Below, piece by piece: positions 33,400-63,805 of a stretch of DNA of 64,000 bases (positions are counted from its first letter, which is position 1; every line of letters starts with the position of its first letter). The position numbers were made by a program, and so were the translations under genes. A model generated the notes under the pieces. That model did no database searches, was not told the DNA's origin, and worked only from the letters and a program-made list of their open reading frames with translations. This stretch comes from Escherichia coli. GTDB taxonomy: Bacteria; Pseudomonadota; Gammaproteobacteria; Enterobacterales; Enterobacteriaceae. The stretch lies in assembly GCF_029227855.1 (NCBI RefSeq), contig NZ_CP074356.1; one strand, written 5' to 3'.

Positions 33400-34716
33400 T
33401 TACGCGAATGCCGCCATGCTGGCTTTCATGGTGTACACCTCGACCAGCGTGTTGGTGTACTCCTCGAGATAACGGTCGTAGTTGGCGTTATAGGTATCAG
33501 TAAGCTGATCGCCTTCGTCCTGAATTTTGCTCATCTGATCGTCAATGTTCTGCTGGCGCAGGGTGATGATGCCGTTGCTGGAGTCCGTGTAGGTGTTAAT
33601 CAGGTCGTCCATCTGCGCTACCATGCTGTTGTCGCCAACGAAAATAGAGGTCAGACCGTCAGGATTTTTCGCCATTTCGTCGTTGAACTGGTCGGAGTCA
33701 ATCTGTAAGTGGCCGTGAGAATCGAGGGTGATGCCATAGTCAACAATCGACACGCCGTTGTAGCTGACATGGGCGATGTCATCGAGCTGGTTCGCCAGTG
33801 AACTGAGTCCGGCGTCGCCTGCAAATACCCCGGCGCTGGTACTGTCATCACCGTGAGTGGTTAGCGAATCAACCGTATCGATCAGGGTGTTATAGGCATC
33901 GACAAAGGTCTGCACTTTCTCCTGGCTGGCGCTGGAATCTTCGCTAATGTTAAAGGTAGTGAGGTCGCTGTCAGAATCGCTGACTTCGGTGAAAGTCATG
34001 GTGACGCCGGGGATCACATCATCAAACGTATTGCTGCTGTTTGTGATCTCAGGCCCCGTGGCGCTGCCAAGATGAATAATCGCGTCCTGAGCGGAGGAAA
34101 CATCCGTGGCAACGGGCGCGCTGGTGCTATCGTTGCTGCCGTCATGCCCCGTTACGCTCACCGAAAATGCGCTCTGCGCCCCGGTGCTATCGGAGGTGAG
34201 CATAATCGTGGTGGTGCCGTCGGTTTTTACCAGTGCCGCCGACACGCCCGGATTGTCATCAGAGTCGTTAATCGCATTCACCAGCTCGCTGGCGTCGATA
34301 AAACCGTCGCCGTCACCGTTCTGATCTGCCGCCGACAGATCAATATCCATGGTGCTGTCGCCCATCGTCAGTTCAAAAGTGCCGGTGGCGGAAAAGGTGT
34401 CGTCGCCCATACTGAACGTGGTTTGCTGCCCCTGCGCCAGTTGCTCAACGAAAAACGAGTAGCTTCCCGCCTGTGCCTGCGAGTTAGCGGAAACGGTCGC
34501 CGAGTCATTATTGCTGGTGGCGGCAAACGTCACCGGGCCGTCAGTATCGCTGTTCAGCGCGTCAACGGCGCTCTGAAAATCGCTCAACGCTGAGCTGAGC
34601 GAGTCCAGGCCGCTGCTTTCAGCGTCCAGCTCGGTCTGCTTCTCCTGCAAATTTGCCGCCTGGGTGGCGACATCCGCATAAGCAATTTCTTGCGCAATGG
34701 TTCTTGGGTTAATCAT
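33400..34716 (-). CDS. lafB: Flagellar filament cap protein (FliD-like)
   Basis: 438 aa; position between flagellin and the FliS-like gene. Confidence 0.75.
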   Translation of the reverse strand: MINPRTIAQEIAYADVATQAANLQEKQTELDAESSGLDSLSSALSDFQSAVDALNSDTDGPVTFAATSNNDSATVSANSQAQAGSYSFFVEQLAQGQQTTFSMGDDTFSATGTFELTMGDSTMDIDLSAADQNGDGDGFIDASELVNAINDSDDNPGVSAALVKTDGTTTIMLTSDSTGAQSAFSVSVTGHDGSNDSTSAPVATDVSSAQDAIIHLGSATGPEITNSSNTFDDVIPGVTMTFTEVSDSDSDLTTFNISEDSSASQEKVQTFVDAYNTLIDTVDSLTTHGDDSTSAGVFAGDAGLSSLANQLDDIAHVSYNGVSIVDYGITLDSHGHLQIDSDQFNDEMAKNPDGLTSIFVGDNSMVAQMDDLINTYTDSSNGIITLRQQNIDDQMSKIQDEGDQLTDTYNANYDRYLEEYTNTLVEVYTMKASMAAFA

Positions 34717-34851
34717 TGATGACTCCGGGTAACGATGTCAGGTTAATGGCAAAAGGCGTGCCAATATTTTTTATGTGAATAATCAATAGATTGAAAAACA
34801 GGCGGAAATGACGTTTCCGGTCTGGCGGAAAAAAGCCTGCCGCAGAAAGCA

Positions 34852-34875
34852 CAACACCGCCTGCAGGCGGTGTTG
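34852..34875 (-). terminator. Intrinsic terminator downstream of lafA
   Basis: Perfect 10-bp stem CAACACCGCC-TGCA-GGCGGTGTTG, with a T-run on the lafA strand shortly after. Confidence 0.5.
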
Positions 34876-42772: not shown

Positions 42773-43558
42773 TTACAGCGTCTGGCTGATGTACTGCAAC
42801 ATATCGTCCGCCGCCGACACCATTTTGGCGTTCATCTCGTACGCGCGTTGCACCGTAATCATCGCCACCATTTCGTTGACGATATCCACGTTCGATCCTT
42901 CCAGCGCGTTGTCCTGCAAGGTGCCAAGCCCATCTTCACCCGGCACCCCTTCGGTCGGCTGGCCGCTGGCGGCGGTTTCCAGATAGAGGTTGTCACCCTC
43001 GGCAGAAAGCCCCGCCGGGTTAGCGAAGTTAACCAGCGTCAGTTGCCCTAACTCGGTCACGTCGCTGTCGCCAGGTAAGATCGCCGTCACCGTGCCGTCC
43101 TCACCAAAAGCAACATTAGTCGCCCCCGCCGGAACGTCGATTTCCGGCTGTAACGGCAAGCCTTGCGAGTTGGTCAGCACGCCGTCGGCGTTCACCTGCA
43201 AGTTGCCGTCGCGGGTATAGGCGATATCGCCGTTGGCCTTTTGCACCTGCAAAAACCCCTGCCCCATAATGGCGACATTCATCGCGTTGTCGGTGGTTTC
43301 AACGTTGCCTTCGGTGAAGGTTTTCTGAGTGCCGACAATGCGCACGCCGCTACCGAATTGCAGCCCGGTCGGCATGATGTTGTTCTGGTCGAGCATCGCG
43401 CCCGGCGCTTCCTGGGTCTGGTAGAACAGATCCTGAAACATCACCCGGTCGCGCTTGAAGCCGGTGGTGTTAACGTTGGCGATGTTGTTGGCAATCGCGC
43501 TCATTTCAGCATCCTGCGCCGAGAGGCCGGTTTTGCTGATCCATAATGCTGCGTTCAT
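42773..43558 (-). CDS. lfgG: Flagellar distal rod protein (FlgG-like)
   Basis: 261 aa; rod-family N-terminal motif and C-terminal ...AYEMNAKM. Confidence 0.85.
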   Translation of the reverse strand: MNAALWISKTGLSAQDAEMSAIANNIANVNTTGFKRDRVMFQDLFYQTQEAPGAMLDQNNIMPTGLQFGSGVRIVGTQKTFTEGNVETTDNAMNVAIMGQGFLQVQKANGDIAYTRDGNLQVNADGVLTNSQGLPLQPEIDVPAGATNVAFGEDGTVTAILPGDSDVTELGQLTLVNFANPAGLSAEGDNLYLETAASGQPTEGVPGEDGLGTLQDNALEGSNVDIVNEMVAMITVQRAYEMNAKMVSAADDMLQYISQTL

Positions 43559-46261: not shown

Positions 46262-46692
46262 CAGGCTTCTCCCAGTTTCAGCAGGCTTTGCTGCATACTT
46301 TTCACGTTGTTGAGCACATCGACGTTGGTTTCAAAATCGCGCGAGGCCGACATCATGTCCGCCATCTGTTCCACCACGTTGACGTCGGGATACCAGACAT
46401 CTCCGTTAGCATCCGCCAGCGGCGAATGCGGTTCATAGCGTTTCACCGCCCCGCCGGTTTGCAGCACGTCCTGCACCTGCACGCTGGCACCGTCAATGGC
46501 ATGGCGATGTGTACCCGCCAGCAAGCTGTGGTGATACACCGCCGCAAACACCGGGCTGCGCGCTTTATACGCCTGCGCCTCGCTGCTGGCGGGTGCATTG
46601 GCATTCGCCAGGTTACTGGCAACGGTATTCAGACGTAGCGTTTGCGCTGTCATCGCCGAACCGGAAATCTGATAGATATCAGTAAATGACAT
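46261..46692 (-). CDS. lfgC: Flagellar proximal rod protein (FlgC-like)
   Basis: 143 aa rod protein. Confidence 0.85.
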   Translation of the reverse strand: MSFTDIYQISGSAMTAQTLRLNTVASNLANANAPASSEAQAYKARSPVFAAVYHHSLLAGTHRHAIDGASVQVQDVLQTGGAVKRYEPHSPLADANGDVWYPDVNVVEQMADMMSASRDFETNVDVLNNVKSMQQSLLKLGEA

Positions 46693-46694
46693 GC

Positions 46695-47030
46695 TTATTT
46701 CCCTTCAATGGCCTCTCTGATGCCGCTGATTTGCAGATTCAGGAAGGTCAGACTGCTTTGATAATCCATACTATTTTGTGAAAACCGCGCCTGTTCGCTG
46801 TTCAGCTCCACGGTGTTGCCATCTTCCGACGGCTGCATCGGCACGCGGTACTGGACATCCACCGCCGCGTTATTTGCCCGTTGCATCTCCCTGGCAAAAT
46901 CAATATCTTTAGCCTTGAAATTTGGCGTATCGACGTTCGCCAGATTCGCAGTCAGTAGCTCGGTCCTCTCAAGACGTAACTTCACTGCCTGCGGATGTAC
47001 TCCCAATGCCTGTTGAAAACTGATCCCCAT
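46695..47030 (-). CDS. lfgB: Flagellar proximal rod protein (FlgB-like); upstream in-frame ATG at 47060 is probably not used
   Basis: Rod motif LTANLANVDTPNFKAKDIDFA; start at 47030 has an RBS and lies downstream of the sigma-54-type promoter. Confidence 0.8.
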   Translation of the reverse strand: MGISFQQALGVHPQAVKLRLERTELLTANLANVDTPNFKAKDIDFAREMQRANNAAVDVQYRVPMQPSEDGNTVELNSEQARFSQNSMDYQSSLTFLNLQISGIREAIEGK

Positions 47031-47066
47031 TTCCTGCGTCACTCCTGCTTCAATCCGCATACGCTA

Positions 47067-47082
47067 GGCAATTACCGTGCCA
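47067..47082 (-). promoter_or_regulatory. Sigma-54 (-24/-12) promoter of the lfgB rod/hook operon
   Basis: Minus strand reads TGGCACGGTAATTGCC, a near-perfect match to TGGCACG-N4-TTGC, about 35 nt upstream of the proposed lfgB start. Confidence 0.55.
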
Positions 47083-47090
47083 TTTTTTAA

Positions 47091-47849
47091 GTGACTGATG
47101 AGAAAGGGTTTATGAGTTTTCAATTTTGCAGGCGGAAGTTTTATTTCCTCCTGGCGCTGGCCTTACCGGGCTACGCCGCCGTCTACCCCGTGCAACACAG
47201 CGCGCGGGAACAAGTCAACGCCCAGGTGCTGAATGCCGCGAGCCAGCAGATTGAATCGCTGGCGCAGCAGCGGCAGTGGCATGACTATCGCTACACCTTT
47301 AAGGTCTACATTCCCTCGCAGATTGCGACCGCTGCGCCCTGTGCTGCGGCACCCGGCGTCACGCTGACGTCGCCTGTGGACATCGCCCTCAACCGCATGA
47401 ACTTCACCGTCAGTTGCCCGCAAAGCTGGCAGATGAACGTGGCGGTGCGCCCGGATGTGCTGGTGCCGGTGGTGATGACAAAGTCACTGGTTGCCCGCGA
47501 TACGCCGCTCACGGCGAATGATGTGGAGCTGAAGCCCTACAACGTCAGCGCCCAGCGTCGCGATGTGTTGATGGAGCTTGATGACGCAATTGGTTTAAGC
47601 AGTAAGCACGCGCTGCAGCCGGGCAGGCCAATCACCAAAGAAGAGCTGGTCTCTCCGGTACTGATCGAGCGCGATCAGCCGGTGATGATTGTTTACCAGA
47701 ACGCGGGGATCACCGCCTCGATGCCCGGCGTGGCGCTGAAAAATGGCCGCAAAGGCGAGATGGTGAAAGTACGTAACGCAAGCAGCCAGCGGGTCATCAG
47801 CGCGATGGTGGCGGAAAGCGGCGTGGTGACAACGGTAAGCGCGGAGTAA
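47091..47849 (+). CDS. lfgA: Flagellar P-ring assembly chaperone (FlgA-like); alternative start at 47112
   Basis: 252 aa with signal peptide; divergent from lfgB. Confidence 0.75.
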   Translation: MTDEKGFMSFQFCRRKFYFLLALALPGYAAVYPVQHSAREQVNAQVLNAASQQIESLAQQRQWHDYRYTFKVYIPSQIATAAPCAAAPGVTLTSPVDIALNRMNFTVSCPQSWQMNVAVRPDVLVPVVMTKSLVARDTPLTANDVELKPYNVSAQRRDVLMELDDAIGLSSKHALQPGRPITKEELVSPVLIERDQPVMIVYQNAGITASMPGVALKNGRKGEMVKVRNASSQRVISAMVAESGVVTTVSAE

Positions 47850-47863
47850 TTTGCGCAGGCGAT

Positions 47864-47871
47864 TAAAGTTT
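47864..47871 (+). promoter_or_regulatory. Candidate sigma-28-type -35 element upstream of lfgM
   Basis: Exact TAAAGTTT about 60 nt upstream of the lfgM start; no matching GCCGATAA-type -10 found at the standard spacing. Confidence 0.25.
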
Positions 47872-47929
47872 TGCCGCCTGTTAACCGCTTTACCGGAGTA
47901 ACACACCTTCAAACAGAGACGAGGTTGCG

Positions 47930-48646: not shown

Positions 48647-48773
48647 CGCGAATACCTTCCCCCATCGCGGAAATGGATTTTCCGCCTGATTCACAATCCT
48701 TTGTTTTTGATTATAAAAATTCCCGGCACGCTTATTGCACATTCCGCAAAGTAATAAAGACTGGAAGCCACCT

Positions 48774-49703
48774 ATGAGTTTTATTGAATGTTACGAACCG
48801 GAATACGTGCGCAATTTTATGACGCAATATCCCGATTCGCCTTTGTACATCCGCAAGGTGTGGAAAAACGAGATTCGCCAGAGCCTGATGCTGACAGAGC
48901 CAGAAAGCTGCGAAGCGGTGCTCAACGATGCCAGGGCCTTTGATTTACAGCTCACCTACCGCCCGGCGGAAGATAATGCCGCAGAACTCTCCGCGCGCGA
49001 TGCGATAGTAAACCAGGTCATTTTGAGCACCCTTACGCTCCCCGATTTACCCCCGGAGCTTTCACTGTACGCCGTCGGGATTTTGCTCTCCCGCGCCAGC
49101 AAAATGCCGGGCAGAGACGGAGATATTCTTGCCCGCTTGACGACGCTGCCACAGGCGCTGGCCGCTCATGCACAAAAAGGCACGCTACAGGCACAGTTCG
49201 CCCAGTTGCCGCCTGTACCACAGCTGGCGCGCCAACTGGTGACGCTGCTCGGCAGTTGTGCGTTTGACTGGTCGATTCTGCCGGAAAGCCCGCGCAAAAC
49301 TTCCCTGCCGTTGCAGATGCCTTTGCTGGCGCTACATGACGCCAACAGCGAAGCCCTGTTGCAACAGCAGCTTCAGGCACAGTGGCAAACCACCTGGCAA
49401 CAGCATTTTGCCACCGCGCCCTGGATGATGTGTAACTGGCTGATTTACCGCGTTTACCATGAGGTGATTGGACAGGCAGACGGAGCAGATTATTGCCCGC
49501 TGGTGTGCGATTTTTATTTTATCCGCACGTTAATCAGTTTATGGACGCTGGATGGTTCTCCGCTGCGGAAGGAGGATATTTTCGCCCTTTTTGCGGTGTT
49601 TGAACGCTGGCGAGAGAGTGAAAATGCGCTGTTTATTCGCCAGCAAATTCAGTCGTTATGTGCCGCCGACCCGCTGCTTTCAGCGTTTTCGCTGCTGACG
49701 TGA
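48774..49703 (+). CDS. Flag-2-associated hypothetical protein
   Basis: 309 aa from MSFIECYEPE with RBS GGAAG; no recognisable domain; track ORF starts at 48735. Confidence 0.5.
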   Translation: MSFIECYEPEYVRNFMTQYPDSPLYIRKVWKNEIRQSLMLTEPESCEAVLNDARAFDLQLTYRPAEDNAAELSARDAIVNQVILSTLTLPDLPPELSLYAVGILLSRASKMPGRDGDILARLTTLPQALAAHAQKGTLQAQFAQLPPVPQLARQLVTLLGSCAFDWSILPESPRKTSLPLQMPLLALHDANSEALLQQQLQAQWQTTWQQHFATAPWMMCNWLIYRVYHEVIGQADGADYCPLVCDFYFIRTLISLWTLDGSPLRKEDIFALFAVFERWRESENALFIRQQIQSLCAADPLLSAFSLLT

Positions 49704-58293: not shown

Positions 58294-59280
58294 TCAGGAG
58301 AAAACTTCGATACCTTGCTTGCGCATGGAGGCCAGTCGATAGCGCAGTGCGCGCGGGGTAATGCCTAACAGGTTGGCGATTTTGCTGCGGTTGCCCTGAT
58401 ATTTACGCATCAGGTCGGCGATATATTGATATTGCGCGCTTCGTCCGTGCTGGCCTAAATCGCAGGTTTCAGCAATGTGGACGGCGGGCTGAACAGGCCA
58501 TTGCAGTTCGCTGCGGTCGGCAACGTCCGTTTCCGGCAGGCCTAAGGCGTCCGGGTAAATTACGCCGTCGCGGTTTAAAATCATTCCCCGCTGAATGGCG
58601 TTCTCCAGCTGGCGCACGTTGCCGGGCCAGCGGTAATTGAGCAGCGCCCGGCGGGTAGATTCTGAAAGGGTGATATTTTTCACCAGCACCGTGGAGTATT
58701 TTTTAATAAATGACTCTGCCAGCGGAATAATATCGTTCAGACGTTCACGCAGCGGCGGCATGGTAATAGGGATTACCGCAAGACGATAATAGAGATCTTC
58801 ACGAAAACGCCCTTCGGCGACTTCCTGCTCAAGGTTTTTATTGGTACAGGCAATCAGGCGAAAATTGAGTTTAATTTGTCGGTTGCTGCCTAATCGCTCA
58901 ACCTGCTGTTCCTGCAATACGCGTAATATTTTGACCTGTAGCGCCAGCGGCATATCGCCAATTTCATCGAGCAATAAGGAGCCGTTATTCGCCAGTTCCA
59001 TTTTTCCTGGCACGCTGGCAATTGCGCCGGTAAATGCACCTTTGTCGTAGCCAAATAAGGTAGATTCCAGCATATTTTCCGGGATCGCCGCGCAGTTCAC
59101 GCCGACATAGGGTGCGCTTTCATTTTCACCAAAGGCTACGGTGTGAATATATTTTGCCACGCACTCTTTGCCCGCGCCGGTTTCGCCCTGAATGAGCACC
59201 GGCACGTTAAAGGCGGCGACACGCTTTGCCAGAGTAAAAGCGTTAATGCTGGAAGCGGCAGTTGCAATAAGTTCAGACAT
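58294..59280 (-). CDS. lafK: Sigma-54-dependent transcriptional activator (AAA+ domain plus C-terminal HTH; no receiver domain in the called ORF)
   Basis: Walker A GETGAGKE, GAFTGA motif, C-terminal Fis-type HTH; the ORF starts directly at the AAA+ domain. Confidence 0.8.
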   Translation of the reverse strand: MSELIATAASSINAFTLAKRVAAFNVPVLIQGETGAGKECVAKYIHTVAFGENESAPYVGVNCAAIPENMLESTLFGYDKGAFTGAIASVPGKMELANNGSLLLDEIGDMPLALQVKILRVLQEQQVERLGSNRQIKLNFRLIACTNKNLEQEVAEGRFREDLYYRLAVIPITMPPLRERLNDIIPLAESFIKKYSTVLVKNITLSESTRRALLNYRWPGNVRQLENAIQRGMILNRDGVIYPDALGLPETDVADRSELQWPVQPAVHIAETCDLGQHGRSAQYQYIADLMRKYQGNRSKIANLLGITPRALRYRLASMRKQGIEVFS

Positions 59281-59433
59281 AGGGTGAACGATATAAGTAG
59301 CGACAGAAAACAGGATGTTCTGAAGCGTATCACCGGCGGGATTAACAAGTTCGAATTAAACGATAATAAAAATATTATTTGATGGTAAACAATGAGTTAG
59401 ATATTAATACTGTTAATTGCGACATCTGTGATG

Positions 59434-59472
59434 CCCCCTCACCCTAACCCTCTCCCCGGATGGGGCTAGGGG
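59434..59472. repeat. GC-rich imperfect palindrome (CCCCCTCACCCTAACCCTCTCCCC..GGGGCTAGGGG)
   Basis: Inverted copy of the motif at 49721-49751, in the lafK-lfiM divergent intergenic region. Confidence 0.4.
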
Positions 59473-59652
59473 ACAGACCGCAGACTGATTGGCGAAAATC
59501 ACTCCCATTAAGCAATTAATCGATTAATTATTTTTTCATCCTATTAATAATTTGCCCCTTTCACTCCCCCTCTATTTAATACCTCACCTTGTGTCACTGC
59601 CGGATTTGCGTGCACAAAATCGCCCATACCATTACAGCAGAGAAAGTAAGCC

Positions 59653-61893: not shown

Positions 61894-62676
61894 ATGCGCA
61901 CAAGCGACGTTACGCAACTGATGGATCTGGCGCTGGGGCTGTGGTTTCCCTTCGTGCGCATTATGGCGTTTCTGCGCTATGTGCCGGTGCTGGATAACAG
62001 CGCCCTGACCGTGCGCGTGCGGATTATTTTGTCGCTGGCGCTGGCAATCATCATCACGCCGTTGATCCCCCATCCCATTCCCCACGATCTGCTTTCACTC
62101 AACAGCCTGATCCTGACGGTGGAGCAAATTTTATGGGGCATGTTGTTCGGGCTGATGTTTCAGTTTCTGTTTCTCGCGCTACAACTGGCCGGACAAATTC
62201 TCTCGTTCAATATGGGGATGAGCATGGCGGTGATGAACGACCCGAGCAGCGGCGCATCGACCACCGTGCTGGCGGAGTTAATCAACGTCTATGCGATCCT
62301 GCTGTTTTTTGCCATGGACGGGCATCTGCTGCTGGTAAGCGTGCTGTATAAGGGCTTCACCTACTGGCCGATTGGTAACGCGCTGCATCCGCAAACCCTG
62401 CGCACCATCGCGCTGGCCTTTAGCTGGGTGCTGGCGTCCGCATCACTGCTGGCGCTGCCGACCACCTTCATCATGCTGATTGTGCAGGGCTGCTTTGGCC
62501 TGCTCAACCGCATCGCGCCGCCGCTGAACCTCTTTTCGCTCGGCTTTCCCATCAACATGCTGGCGGGGCTGGTTTGCTTTGCCACCCTGCTCTACAACCT
62601 GCCGGATCACTATCTGCATCTGGCGAATTTTGTGTTGCAGCAACTCGACGCGCTGAAAGGTCACTATGGCGGATAG
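61894..62676 (+). CDS. lfiR: Flagellar export apparatus protein (FliR-like)
   Basis: 260 aa multi-TM protein from MRTSDVTQL; track ORF starts at 61843. Confidence 0.8.
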   Translation: MRTSDVTQLMDLALGLWFPFVRIMAFLRYVPVLDNSALTVRVRIILSLALAIIITPLIPHPIPHDLLSLNSLILTVEQILWGMLFGLMFQFLFLALQLAGQILSFNMGMSMAVMNDPSSGASTTVLAELINVYAILLFFAMDGHLLLVSVLYKGFTYWPIGNALHPQTLRTIALAFSWVLASASLLALPTTFIMLIVQGCFGLLNRIAPPLNLFSLGFPINMLAGLVCFATLLYNLPDHYLHLANFVLQQLDALKGHYGG

Positions 62677-63805
62677 CAGCAGCGAAGAAAAAACAGAGAA
62701 ACCCTCGGCGCAAAAGCTGCGTAAAGCGCGTGAAGAGGGGCAACTGCCGCGCTCGAAGGATATGGGGCTGGCAGCGAGCCTGTTTGCAGCGTTTGTGGTG
62801 ATCTCCAGCAGTTTTCCGTGGTATGCCGATTTTGTGCGCGAGAGTTTTATCAGCGTGCATCAGTACGCGCAGGAGATTAATAACCCGCAGGTGATCGGTC
62901 AGTTTCTGCGCCACCACCTGTTAATTCTCGGCAAGTTTATCCTTACGTTGCTGCCGATGCCCGCCGCCGCGCTGCTCTCTTCGCTGGTGCCGGGCGGCTG
63001 GCTGTTTCTGCCGAAAAAAATCCTCCCGGATTTCAGCAAAATTAGCCCGTTAAAAGGCATTGGGCGTCTGTTTTCCAGTGAACATCTGGCGGAAACGGGA
63101 AAGATGACGGTGAAGTCTGCCGTGGTGCTGGTGATGCTGTGGGTAAGCCTGCGCAATAACTTTGCCGCCTTTCTCGGCCTGCAGGCGCTGCCGTTCAAAC
63201 TGGCGATGAATGACGGTTTGTCGCTCTACGCCAGCGTGATGCGCAACTTTGTCATCCTGTTTATTTTCTTTGCGCTTCTCGACGTGCCGCTGGCGAAAGC
63301 CCTGTTCACCAAAGGGCTGAAGATGACCAAACAAGAACTGAAAGAAGAGTACAAAAATCAGGAAGGCAAGCCGGAAGTGAAGGCGCGCGTGCGGCGGCTG
63401 CAACGGCAGCTGGCGATGGGGCAAATTCGCAAAGTGGTGCCAAAGGCCAACGTGGTGATCACCAACCCGACCCACTACGCCGTGGCGTTGCAGTATGACC
63501 AGTCGCGTGCCGCCGCGCCGTTTGTGGTGGCGAAAGGCACCGATGAAATCGCCCTCTATATTCGCCAGGTCGCTGCTGAAAGTCAGGTGGAAGTGGTCGA
63601 GTTCCCGCGGCTGGCGCGCTCGGTTTACTATACCACTCAGGTGAATCAGCAAATTCCTTTTCAGCTTTACCGGGCTATCGCCCACGTTCTGACCTACGTC
63701 CTGCAAATGAAACACTGGCGCGAGGGCGCACAGCCGCGCCCGGCCCTGAACAGACATATTTCCATTCCCAAAGAGGTGCTTAAACTGGATGGCGAAAACA
63801 ACTAA
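62666..63805 (+). CDS. lfhB: Flagellar export apparatus switch protein (FlhB-like)
   Basis: 379 aa; NPTH autocleavage motif (VVITNPTHYAVAL). Confidence 0.9.
   Translation: MADSSSEEKTEKPSAQKLRKAREEGQLPRSKDMGLAASLFAAFVVISSSFPWYADFVRESFISVHQYAQEINNPQVIGQFLRHHLLILGKFILTLLPMPAAALLSSLVPGGWLFLPKKILPDFSKISPLKGIGRLFSSEHLAETGKMTVKSAVVLVMLWVSLRNNFAAFLGLQALPFKLAMNDGLSLYASVMRNFVILFIFFALLDVPLAKALFTKGLKMTKQELKEEYKNQEGKPEVKARVRRLQRQLAMGQIRKVVPKANVVITNPTHYAVALQYDQSRAAAPFVVAKGTDEIALYIRQVAAESQVEVVEFPRLARSVYYTTQVNQQIPFQLYRAIAHVLTYVLQMKHWREGAQPRPALNRHISIPKEVLKLDGENN

What the first reader, a model, noticed from the sequence alone, without database searches (positions are those of the whole stretch)
47030..47090. 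Near-consensus sigma-54 promoter and probable mis-called start of lfgB
TGGCACGGTAATTGCC on the lfgB strand matches the -24/-12 consensus. Its predicted start site lies downstream of the first in-frame ATG at 47060, so the second ATG at 47030 (with RBS, and aligning with the FlgB N-terminus) is the likelier start. This fits LafK/RpoN control of the rod-hook operon, as in lateral flagellar systems.
Basis: partly seen in the sequence, partly recalled or inferred. Interest (0 to 1): 0.4.

Follow-up and report, generated by a model that had tools for sequence, protein, structure and literature searches.

The report
Sigma-54 promoter of lateral-flagellar lfgB operon
The motif is a real, deeply conserved sigma-54 promoter for the rod-hook operon of E. 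coli's second (Flag-2, lateral-type) flagellar system, lfgB starts at the second ATG as public annotation already says, and the promoter sits a fixed distance from a conserved palindrome that is probably the activator's docking site.

Summary
The window is an E. coli Flag-2 (lateral-type flagellar) locus. TGGCACGGTAATTGC lies at 47082..47068 (- strand), 38 nt from its -12 C to the ATG at 47030. The ATG at 47060 lies 4 nt upstream of the predicted start site (~47056).

An equivalent sigma-54 element sits upstream of lfgB in 78 of 80 related loci from many genera, against 0.8% of control windows.

The 47030 start is supported by several results:
- RefSeq aa in five E. coli genomes.
- Orthologues begin MGISF.
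- Residue 1 of a solved FlgB aligns with this Met.
- The GGAG ribosome-binding site is conserved.
- The 47060 ATG is absent in Citrobacter and Phytobacter and out of frame in one Escherichia.

So "mis-called" applies only to longest-ORF calls and some metagenome calls.

New here is a palindrome, GGAAA-N5-(T/C)TTCC (47148..47134, inside lfgA codons). It lies 51-54 nt upstream of the promoter in about 70 Enterobacterales loci. It recurs in non-coding DNA 40-41 nt upstream of two more sigma-54 promoters in the window (lafB, lysine-N-methylase) and in a Vibrio lateral flgB promoter. It is most likely the enhancer site of LafK, which here is an AAA+/HTH protein with no sensor domain.

The promoter is ordinary and expected by analogy with Vibrio parahaemolyticus. 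The palindrome is a modest new lead. Nothing was tested experimentally.

The parts
47068..47082 (-). Sigma-54 -24/-12 promoter element TGGCACGGTAATTGC (GG at 47081-47080, GC at 47069-47068) of the lfgB operon
   Evidence: It is conserved upstream of lfgB in 78 of 80 loci and is invariant (TGGCA...ATTGC) in the alignment of 13 Escherichia, Pseudocitrobacter, Citrobacter and Phytobacter sequences.
47054..47058 (-). Predicted transcription start (+1 at about 47056). This is an inference from the -12 position and has not been mapped.
   Evidence: Follows from the definition of -24/-12 promoters, with the C of GC at 47068. No sigma-70-like promoter was found in 46800-47300 on either strand.
47058..47060 (-). 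Upstream in-frame ATG that opens the longest ORF (121 aa). It is most likely not a start codon.
   Evidence: It lies at -4 to -2 relative to the predicted start site. It has no Shine-Dalgarno sequence (-3.0 kcal/mol). It is absent in Citrobacter and Phytobacter and out of frame in L002. Orthologue alignments cover only residues 11-121 of the 121-aa query.
47042..47046 (-). Shine-Dalgarno sequence AGGAG, 11 nt before the lfgB ATG
   Evidence: GGAG is invariant in alignment A3. Duplex energy with the anti-SD is -6.9 kcal/mol, about the 5th percentile of random 20-mers.
46695..47030 (-). lfgB coding sequence (111 aa, proximal rod protein of the Flag-2 system), first gene of the lfgBCDEFGHIJKL operon
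   Evidence: The RefSeq product is WP_000512950.1. Pfam Flg_bb_rod matches. PDB FlgB alignments agree.
47134..47148 (.). Palindrome GGAAATAAAACTTCC (followed by GCCTG to 47129), centred about 85 nt upstream of the predicted start. It is the candidate LafK enhancer (upstream activating) site and lies in lfgA codons 8-13.
   Evidence: It lies at a gap of 51-54 nt from TGGCAC in 69 of 72 Enterobacterales loci (three more at 48, 49 and 55), and the core GGAA-N7-TTC is invariant in the 68 counted. There are 59 hits in the promoter zone of 71 loci against about 1.6 expected. That LafK binds it is inferred.
47112..47849 (+). lfgA (P-ring chaperone), transcribed divergently. Its first 37 nt overlap the enhancer site, and its 5' untranslated region must cross the lfgB promoter.
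   Evidence: ChapFlgA domain.
58294..59280 (-). lafK, the sigma-54 activator encoded in the locus. It has an AAA+ sigma-54 interaction domain (6-172), an AAA lid and a Fis-type HTH (284-317), and no N-terminal sensor domain.
34749..34818 (-). Second promoter of the same build, for lafB (fliD-like) and downstream genes. Palindrome GGAAACGTCATTTCC at 34818..34804, TGGCACGCCTTTTGC at 34763..34749, lafB ATG at 34716.
   Evidence: The same build, with a gap of 40-41 nt, occurs in two Citrobacter species and Phytobacter.
48669..48738 (+). Third promoter of the same build, for the lysine-N-methylase and glycosyltransferase genes. Palindrome GCGGAAATGGATTTTCCGC (core 48669..48683), CGGCACGCTTATTGC at 48724..48738, ATG at 48774.
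   Evidence: A palindrome-plus-promoter pair lies at the equivalent position upstream of lfgN in 14 other loci. In at least the Escherichia, Pseudocitrobacter and Citrobacter loci the downstream ORF resembles the window's methylase gene. The gap is 40-41 nt in 12 and 49-51 nt in 2.

Best explanation
This is the RpoN (sigma-54)-dependent promoter of the Flag-2 rod-hook operon lfgBCDEFGHIJKL.

**Proposed mechanism.**
- Sigma-54 RNA polymerase binds the -24/-12 element at 47082..47068 as a closed complex (inferred from sequence and conservation).
- LafK, the activator encoded in the locus, binds as a dimer or oligomer to the palindrome GGAAA-N5-YTTCC centred near -85, inside the first codons of the divergent lfgA gene. 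This LafK-palindrome link is the least certain step; I put it at about 0.6. LafK has an AAA+ domain and a Fis-type HTH but no sensor domain.
- LafK would then contact the polymerase by looping across an A/T-rich spacer and use ATP to open the promoter (inferred).
- Transcription starts near 47056. The mRNA therefore lacks the ATG at 47060.
- After a leader of about 26 nt carrying AGGAG, translation starts at the ATG at 47030 and gives the 111-aa LfgB.

**Wider circuit.** The same promoter build drives lafB and downstream genes (which include the sigma-28 gene lafS) and the flagellin-modification genes. lafA and lfgM carry sigma-28-like promoters. The locus therefore appears to keep the LafK -> sigma-54 -> LafS -> sigma-28 cascade described for Vibrio parahaemolyticus.
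For: **Motif and geometry.**
- Sequence and coordinates.
- No sigma-70-like promoter nearby.

**Conservation of the sigma-54 element.**
- It is upstream of lfgB in 78 of 80 loci from Escherichia, Citrobacter, Yersinia, Enterobacter, Pantoea, Serratia, Mangrovibacter, Methylomonas and others, against 0.8% of control windows.
- The distance from the -12 C to the conserved start codon is never below 31 nt.

**Start codon.**
- RefSeq annotation.
- Orthologue and PDB alignments.
- Non-conservation of the extension.
- Ribosome-binding-site energies.

**Palindrome.**
- The 14-base pattern GGAAA-N6-TTCCGCCTG matches exactly three times in the window, each upstream of one of the three best sigma-54 sites.
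- It keeps a fixed spacing to the promoter in about 70 Enterobacterales loci. Positions that are synonymous in lfgA are invariant: the codon is NGG while the residue varies R/G, and Phe is always TTC, never TTT.
- The same palindrome occurs in non-coding DNA, with a variable 5-nt centre, upstream of the methylase gene or at the equivalent position (14 loci) and upstream of lafB (3 other genera).
- It is present (GGAAG-N5-CTTCC, gap 41) in the Vibrio campbellii lateral flgB promoter. It is absent from an Aeromonas polar flgB sigma-54 promoter.

**Activator and literature.**
- LafK domains.
- RpoN binds the V. parahaemolyticus lateral flgB promoter (PMC9817140).
- LafK with sigma-54 drives the class-2 lateral genes (PMC4481668; PMC3658858). 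LafK activates the lateral genes, but the fliM-L operon does not depend on it (PMC3930126). This matches the absence of a composite site in the lafK-lfiM spacer.
Against: - There is no experimental datum for E. coli: no mapped start site, no rpoN or lafK genetics, no LafK-DNA binding.
- The motif count in the window alone is not significant.
- The AGGAG-to-ATG spacing of 11 nt is longer than optimal.
- Spacing between palindrome and promoter varies by up to 4 bp within the lfgB class (51-55), so strict helical phasing is not shown.
- In about 20 non-Escherichia loci the same palindrome also lies next to a sigma-28-like lfgM promoter with no sigma-54 site within 90 nt. Its binding factor may therefore do more than activate sigma-54 promoters, or it may not be LafK.
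- Inside lfgA the palindrome encodes part of the signal-peptide n-region (R/G-K-x-x-F), so some of its conservation there could be protein-level.
- Flag-2 is often mutated in E. coli and generally regarded as cryptic, so the promoter may rarely fire.
Confidence: 0.8

Rival explanations
1. The sigma-54-like motif is a chance match. Under this reading lfgB is transcribed from another (sigma-70 or read-through) promoter further upstream, and the 121-aa ORF from 47060 is the real protein.
For: The count of exact matches in the window is only marginally above shuffles (2 against 0.40, with 6 of 100 shuffles reaching 2). Some public gene calls do use longer N-termini.
Against: - The sigma-54 element is conserved in 78 of 80 loci whose flanks cannot be aligned.
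- There is no sigma-70-like site in 46800-47300.
- There is no Shine-Dalgarno sequence before 47060.
- The extension is absent, interrupted or frameshifted in relatives.
- Solved FlgB proteins and orthologues begin at the 47030 Met.
Confidence: 0.03
2. The promoter is sigma-54-dependent, but the GGAAA-N5-TTTCC palindrome is not the LafK site. It would be bound by another regulator (for example the ToxR-like LafZ or a host factor), or at lfgB it would be conserved mainly because it encodes the LfgA signal-peptide n-region.
For: - No binding data exist.
- Inside lfgA the palindrome keeps a constant reading phase and encodes R/G-K-x-x-F.
- In about 20 loci a copy sits beside a sigma-28-like lfgM promoter with no sigma-54 site nearby.
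Against: - The same palindrome, with a variable centre, occurs in non-coding DNA at a fixed 40-41 nt from sigma-54 promoters of two other operons and in other genera.
- Synonymous positions are invariant while the encoded residue varies.
- Dyad symmetry with half-sites 10 bp apart suits a Fis-type HTH dimer such as LafK better than a winged-helix ToxR-like protein. That last point rests on general knowledge and was not tested.
- Constant phase is expected for any element inherited inside an ORF, so it does not discriminate between the readings.
Confidence: 0.25
3. The promoter and its enhancer are intact in sequence but are a silent relic in E. coli. Flag-2 would be cryptic, and the element would be conserved only by recent common descent within Escherichia. 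This rival concerns activity rather than identity, so it is not exclusive of the main explanation.
For: - Flag-2 is present in only 1279 of 5426 complete E. coli genomes.
- lfhB is frameshifted in the closest genome.
- The literature calls E. coli Flag-2 non-functional or of unknown function (PMC4481668; PMC11420993).
Against: - All Flag-2 genes I inspected in the window have intact ORFs, including lfhB (379 aa) and lfgC.
- The cis-elements are invariant among E. coli alleles that differ by about 4%.
- The architecture is maintained over much deeper divergence.
Confidence: 0.3

Closest known systems
Vibrio parahaemolyticus lateral flagellar flgB (flgB2, VPA0264) promoter, a LafK/sigma-54 class-2 promoter
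   Same: - It is the orthologous gene: the first gene of the lateral rod-hook operon.
- It has a near-identical -24 region (ATGGCACG...).
- RpoN binding has been shown by gel shift (PMC9817140).
- lafB also carries a predicted sigma-54 site there, as it does here.
- A close relative, V. campbellii, has the GGAAG-N5-CTTCC palindrome 41 nt upstream.
   Different: - The E. coli -12 element is consensus TTGC, whereas the Vibrio element is TTGT.
- The palindrome-to-promoter gap is 51 nt here and 41 nt in Vibrio.
- The LafK of this window has no N-terminal domain. A review describes V. parahaemolyticus LafK as similar to FlrA and FleQ (PMC3658858). I did not compare the two proteins.
- Nothing has been tested in E. 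coli.
Polar-flagellum flgB sigma-54 promoters of Vibrio, Aeromonas and Pseudomonas (FlrC/FleR-dependent)
   Same: A sigma-54 -24/-12 element sits directly upstream of flgB (V. parahaemolyticus VP0775 TTGGCACGCTAATTGC; Aeromonas caviae TTGGCACACCTCTTGC).
   Different: These promoters use a different activator. The one polar example I examined has no GGAAA-N5-TTTCC palindrome.
Enhancer sites of NtrC-family activators (for example NtrC sites at glnAp2, TGCACC-N5-GGTGCA). This comparison is from general knowledge.
   Same: A dyad-symmetric site with a 5-nt centre, read by a C-terminal Fis-type HTH and located upstream of a -24/-12 promoter.
   Different: - The half-site sequence differs (GGAAA).
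- The site is closer to the promoter (centre about -74 to -87) than the classical -100 to -140.
- One copy is embedded in a coding sequence.
- Binding has not been demonstrated.
Sensor-less sigma-54 activators such as PspF and HrpR/HrpS. This comparison is from general knowledge.
   Same: E. coli LafK begins directly with the AAA+ domain (Sigma54_activat, residues 6-172) and ends with an HTH_8 domain. Its activity is therefore probably set by its own expression or by a partner protein rather than by phosphorylation.
   Different: No negative regulator equivalent to PspA has been identified. This is a resemblance in domain make-up only.

Membership tests
Sigma-54 (RpoN) -24/-12 promoter | GG and GC dinucleotides exactly 10 nt apart within a TGGCAC-N5-TTGC-like sequence | tested here: met
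   TGGCACGGTAATTGC at 47082..47068 matches all 12 specified core positions.
Sigma-54 (RpoN) -24/-12 promoter | Placed upstream of, and oriented towards, a gene, so that the start site precedes the ribosome-binding site and start codon | tested here: met
   The -12 C is 38 nt from the ATG at 47030, giving a predicted leader of about 26 nt that contains AGGAG. The same holds in 80 loci, with distances of 31-85 nt.
Sigma-54 (RpoN) -24/-12 promoter | A cognate enhancer-binding AAA+ activator is available | tested here: met
   LafK (58294..59280) carries Sigma54_activat (E = 6.9e-64), AAA_lid_14 and HTH_8 domains.
Sigma-54 (RpoN) -24/-12 promoter | Conserved in orthologous loci beyond the background level | tested here: met
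   78 of 80 loci score at least 20, against 0.8% of 7,389 control windows.
Sigma-54 (RpoN) -24/-12 promoter | Transcription depends on rpoN and starts about 12 nt downstream of the GC | not testable with these tools
   This needs 5'-RACE or dRNA-seq and rpoN genetics. The only support is by analogy: RpoN gel shift on the V. parahaemolyticus orthologue (PMC9817140).
LafK-dependent class-2 lateral flagellar promoter (V. parahaemolyticus model) | Drives an orthologous lateral-flagellar operon in a locus that encodes LafK and LafS | tested here: met
   The Flag-2 gene order includes lafK, the lfgB-L genes, lafB and a FliA-family sigma factor.
LafK-dependent class-2 lateral flagellar promoter (V. 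parahaemolyticus model) | Expression requires LafK, and LafK binds an upstream site | not testable with these tools
   A candidate site was found.
Enhancer (upstream activating) site of a sigma-54 activator | Dyad symmetry, location upstream of the -24 element, and recurrence at several promoters of the regulon | tested here: met
   GGAAA-N5-YTTCC occurs at three sigma-54 promoters in the window, with gaps of 51, 40 and 40 nt. It also occurs across genera.
Enhancer (upstream activating) site of a sigma-54 activator | Occurs only in association with sigma-54 promoters | tested here: not met
   About 20 loci have a copy in the lfgA-lfgM spacer beside a sigma-28-like promoter, with no sigma-54 site within 90 nt. 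It could act at a distance or as an operator.
FlgB rod protein (Pfam Flg_bb_rod, PF00460) | N-terminal rod-protein motif at the usual distance from residue 1 | tested here: met
   PF00460 matches residues 27-49 of the 121-aa ORF, which are residues 17-39 of the 111-aa protein. Residue 11 of the long ORF aligns to residue 1 of PDB chain 8z5s_b, and Salmonella FlgB (7bin) aligns with an offset of 10.

The most novel reading that the evidence does not exclude
GGAAA-N5-YTTCC (extended form GCGGAAA-N5-TTTCCGC) would be the previously undescribed DNA recognition site of the lateral-flagellar master activator LafK. It is conserved from Vibrio to Enterobacterales (and, at a gap of 107 nt, in Pseudomonas flexibilis and Serpens). 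At lfgB it is written into the signal-peptide codons of the divergent gene lfgA, so the same 15 nt serve as enhancer and as coding sequence. Copies next to the sigma-28-type lfgM promoter in many genera would give LafK a second, non-activating role on the anti-sigma-factor gene.
Probability: 0.55. Interest if true: 0.5.

Novelty: new member of a known kind. Interest (0 to 1): 0.35.

Why it matters
It fixes the lfgB start codon and the promoter of the main structural operon of Flag-2. About a quarter of complete E. coli genomes (1279 of 5426) carry this system, and its expression conditions are unknown.

Together with the two sister promoters and the sigma-28-like sites at lafA and lfgM, it gives a concrete, testable wiring diagram for the locus: LafK/sigma-54 -> lfgB-L, lafB-U including lafS, and the flagellin-modification genes; LafS/sigma-28 -> lafA, lfgMN.

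The conserved palindrome offers a defined target for LafK binding studies. It is also a simple marker for LafK-regulated genes, including cargo genes in the variable regions.

Finally, the case shows that gene callers repeatedly run ORFs through sigma-54 promoters. The ATG inside TGGCATGG is used as a false start in some public calls.

Tried and rejected
- **Key papers not available.** Ren et al. 2005 (Flag-2 description) and Stewart & McCarter 2003 are not held. I could not check whether they already list this promoter.
- **Bidirectional sigma-54 site for lfgA.** The window's -12 allele TTGCC creates a reverse GG-N10-GC (score 17). Other E. coli alleles have TTGCT, so I rejected this.
- **A promoter for lfgA.** I found no sigma-70-like site and no match to the E. 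coli FliA consensus. It remains unexplained.
- **Sigma-28 -10-like GCCGATAA hits on the lfgA strand inside lfgB.** These hits in several genera are the reverse complement of the conserved LSANLANVDTP codons, which is a coding coincidence.
- **Reading-phase test of the palindrome in lfgA.** The phase is constant in 71 of 72 loci. This is uninformative, because an element inherited inside an ORF cannot change phase.
- **IHF site.** CATCAGTCACTTA (47100-47088) resembles WATCAANNNNTTR, and ATCA...CTTAA is invariant in the close clade. It lies only at -44 to -32 and was not tested, so I make no claim.
- **Composite site in the lafK-lfiM spacer.** None was found.
- **Vibrio breoganii plasmid locus (L088).** It has a different gene order and no clear sigma-54 site.
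- The PDB search replaces it as evidence.
- **Scoring scheme.** My sigma-54 scoring uses my own weights on the published consensus. It is not a calibrated matrix.
Full report
**What the window is.** The 801 bases around the finding match 1279 of 5426 complete E. coli genomes. One match (strain JNEC-KY178) is 100% identical and the rest are 95-99%. The annotation of that genome shows the complete Flag-2 (lateral-type) flagellar locus. It holds lfhAB-lfiRQPNM, lafK-lfiEFGHIJ, a lysine-N-methylase and a glycosyltransferase, lfgNMA, lfgBCDEFGHIJKL, and lafA, lafB and downstream genes including a FliA-family sigma factor and motor genes. The finding lies in the 81-nt spacer between the divergent genes lfgA (ATG at 47112, + strand) and lfgB (- strand).

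**The observation.** Read on the - strand, the region is aTGGCACGGTAATTGCCtagcgtATGcggattgaagcAGGAGtgacgcaggaaATGggg.
- TGGCAC-N5-TTGC occupies 47082..47068.
- The first in-frame ATG is at 47060, just after an in-frame TAG.
- AGGAG is at 47046-47042.
- The second ATG is at 47030.

The exact pattern occurs twice in the window against 0.40 expected, and 6 of 100 shuffles reach two. With one mismatch it is at background, 9 against 7.4. The count alone proves little. The second exact match, at 34763..34749, lies 33 nt from its -12 C to the lafB start. The third-best site by a weighted consensus scan of my own, CGGCACGCTTATTGC at 48724..48738, lies 36 nt before the methylase gene. So the three best sites in 64 kb all sit in front of Flag-2 operons in the right orientation.

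**Conservation of the promoter.** I aligned LfgB orthologues and used the alignment to fetch 80 related loci, one per species, from a genome collection.
- A sigma-54 element scoring at least 20 of 23 is present in the 130 nt upstream of lfgB in 78 of the 80 loci. Only 0.8% of 7,389 control windows from the same loci reach that score.
- The loci span Escherichia, Pseudocitrobacter, Citrobacter, Phytobacter, Yersinia, Enterobacter, Pantoea, Serratia, Cedecea, Mangrovibacter, Pseudomonas flexibilis, Methylomonas and others. Their flanking sequence is mostly unalignable.
- The distance from the -12 C to the conserved start codon ranges from 31 to 85 nt, so the predicted start site always precedes that codon.
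- In V. parahaemolyticus the orthologous lateral flgB promoter (ATGGCACGTATCTTGT) binds RpoN in gel shifts. lafB has a predicted site there too (PMC9817140).
- No sigma-70-like promoter is found in 46800-47300 on either strand.

**The start codon.** With the C of GC at -12 (47068), the start site falls near 47056, so the ATG at 47060 is not on the transcript. Independent evidence agrees:
- RefSeq/PGAP annotates a 111-aa product starting at the position equivalent to 47030 in all five E. coli genomes I inspected.
- The dominant protein cluster is 111 aa with 629 member sequences. Orthologues from other genera cover only residues 11-121 of the long ORF and begin M-G/S-I-S-F at the aligned Met.
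- The few longer database entries have unrelated extensions, with Val (a read-through GTG start) at the aligned position.
- Residue 11 of the long ORF aligns to residue 1 of the solved FlgB chain 8z5s_b. Salmonella FlgB (7bin and others) aligns with an offset of exactly 10.
- In a 13-sequence DNA alignment, GGAG and ATGGG are invariant. The 47060 ATG is missing in Citrobacter and Phytobacter. Two Citrobacter sequences carry in-frame TAA or TGA in the "extension". Escherichia sp. MOD1-EC7003 has a 4-nt deletion that puts the upstream ATG out of frame.
- Predicted pairing with the anti-Shine-Dalgarno sequence is -6.9 kcal/mol before 47030 (about the 5th percentile of random 20-mers) and -3.0 before 47060, which is about the median.

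Over-extension does occur in some ENA, Logan and JGI gene calls. Some of these begin at the ATG inside the promoter's own TGGCATGG.

**A conserved palindrome upstream.** Comparing the three promoters in the window showed a shared element, GGAAA-N5-(T/C)TTCC followed by GCCTG.
- The 14-base pattern GGAAA-N6-TTCCGCCTG has exactly three perfect matches in 64 kb: 47148..47129 (-), 34818..34799 (-) and 48669..48688 (+). Each lies upstream of one of the three sigma-54 sites.
- The gap between the palindrome and the T of TGGCAC is 51, 40 and 40 nt. That puts its centre near -85, -74 and -74.
- In the Enterobacterales lfgB loci the palindrome is present at a gap of 51-54 nt in 69 of 72 (mode 53), and three more lie at 48, 49 and 55. 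Mismatch counts are 0-1 in 59 loci, 2 in 9 and 3 in 4.
- There are 59 hits with at most one mismatch in the promoter zone of 71 loci, against about 1.6 expected from the rest of the same loci.

At lfgB the element lies inside lfgA, in codons 8-13 of the signal-peptide n-region. Part of its conservation there could therefore be protein-level. Two observations argue for a DNA-level constraint.
- Synonymous positions are invariant while the amino acid varies. The first codon is always NGG (CGG, GGG or AGG, giving R or G). Phe is TTC in 68 of 68 loci and never TTT. The next codon almost always starts with C, whatever it encodes.
- The same palindrome, with a freely varying 5-nt centre, occurs in non-coding DNA. 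It lies a fixed 40-41 nt from sigma-54 promoters upstream of the methylase gene or the equivalent position in 12 loci, with two more at 49-51 nt. It also lies upstream of lafB in two Citrobacter species and Phytobacter.

The lateral flgB promoter of Vibrio campbellii has GGAAG-N5-CTTCC at a gap of 41 nt and a second dyad about 41 nt further up. An Aeromonas polar flgB promoter has a sigma-54 site but no palindrome. P. flexibilis and Serpens have the palindrome at a gap of 107 nt.

**Who binds it.** LafK (58294..59280, 328 aa) consists of a sigma-54 interaction AAA+ domain starting at residue 6, an AAA lid and a C-terminal Fis-type HTH. It has no N-terminal sensor domain. A dyad with half-sites 10 bp apart, repeated at every sigma-54 promoter of the locus, is what an enhancer site for such a protein should look like. 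This step is inferred, and I put it at about 0.6. I found no published LafK site in the searchable library, but the two key older papers are not held.

There is one complication. In about 20 non-Escherichia loci a further copy lies in the lfgA-lfgM spacer. It sits beside or overlaps a sigma-28-like promoter (TTAAAGTTT-N12-GTCGCTTTA), and no sigma-54 site lies within 90 nt. The factor may therefore also act as an operator on the anti-sigma gene, or from a distance, or it may not be LafK.

**The circuit in the window.**
- The lafK-lfiM spacer has no composite site. This matches the report that fliM-L is LafK-independent in V. parahaemolyticus (PMC3930126).
- lfgM and lafA carry sigma-28-like elements. 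These are TAAAGTTT at 47864-47871 with CCGCTTTA at 47885-47892, and TTAAGTTT at 35907-35900 with GTCGTTTTTA at 35888-35879.
- The locus thus looks wired like the Vibrio lateral system: LafK/sigma-54 for rod-hook genes, lafB and downstream genes (including the sigma-28 gene) and the modification genes; sigma-28 for flagellin and lfgMN.

**What remains open.** No start site, genetics or binding has been measured for E. coli. How lfgA is transcribed is unexplained. Its ribosome-binding site begins 17 nt from the -24 element, so its mRNA must cross the lfgB promoter on the other strand, and I found no promoter for it. Whether Flag-2 is ever expressed in E. coli is unknown.

**Verdict.** The promoter is an expected member of a known class, and the start-codon point is already reflected in RefSeq. 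The added value is the conserved palindrome and the three-promoter architecture, which are a modest, testable new lead.

Noticed in passing
window 34749-34875 (- strand): After lafA there is a terminator-like hairpin (caacaccgcc-tgca-ggcggtgttg, 34875..34852, then a T-rich run). It is followed by the palindrome (34818..34804) and a consensus sigma-54 promoter (34763..34749) for lafB. A weaker second dyad lies at 34841..34827. The same order of elements is seen in Citrobacter and Phytobacter.
   Followed up: yes
window 48669-48774 (+ strand): The lysine-N-methylase and glycosyltransferase (flagellin-modification) genes have their own promoter built from the palindrome and a sigma-54 site (CGGCAC instead of TGGCAC). 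A promoter of this build lies at the equivalent position in 14 other loci. These cargo genes therefore appear to belong to the same regulon.
   Followed up: yes
window 47864-47892 (+) and 35907-35879 (-): Sigma-28-like promoters lie upstream of lfgM (TAAAGTTT-N13-CCGCTTTA) and lafA (TTAAGTTT-N11-GTCGTTTTTA). Their -10 part differs from the E. coli FliA consensus GCCGATAA, so my consensus scan missed them.
   Followed up: partly
loci L018-L071, about 680-1014 nt upstream of lfgB (lfgA-lfgM spacer): In about 20 genera other than Escherichia, a GGAAA-N5-TTTCC palindrome sits just downstream of, or overlaps (GGAATTTAAGTTTCC), the sigma-28-like lfgM promoter. No sigma-54 site is nearby. Its role is unexplained. 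It could be repression of the anti-sigma gene or action at a distance.
   Followed up: partly
window 47031-47111: No promoter could be found for lfgA. Its ribosome-binding site (gagaaaggg, 47099-47107) is 17 nt from the -24 element of lfgB, so the lfgA mRNA must start inside the lfgB leader or coding region and cross the lfgB promoter head-on.
   Followed up: partly
proteins P0001-P0004, P0007, P0009 (LfgB) and P0148 (Phytobacter LafB, 486 aa): Public automatic gene calls extend these ORFs upstream through the sigma-54 promoter. In several the false start is the ATG inside TGGCATGG.
   Followed up: yes
window 46600-47400 compared with E. coli genomes; loci L002, L004, L006: The window's Flag-2 allele is 100% identical to one E. 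coli genome only and about 96% identical to 1277 others. Its promoter allele (GGTAATTGCC) is shared with E. whittamii and unnamed Escherichia species, which suggests a divergent or exchanged allele. lfhB is intact in the window (62666..63805, 379 aa) but annotated as frameshifted in the otherwise identical strain JNEC-KY178.
   Followed up: partly
window 59430-59480: A GC-rich dyad (ccctcaccctaaccctctccccgg...ggggctagggga) in the 372-nt lafK-lfiM spacer resembles an E. coli intergenic repeat. The spacer has no sigma-54 or palindrome composite.
   Followed up: no
window 43126-43150: A near-palindromic copy (GGAAATCGACGTTCC, one mismatch) lies inside lfgG. Only a poor sigma-54-like site (score 17.5) follows it, so it is probably chance.
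   Followed up: partly
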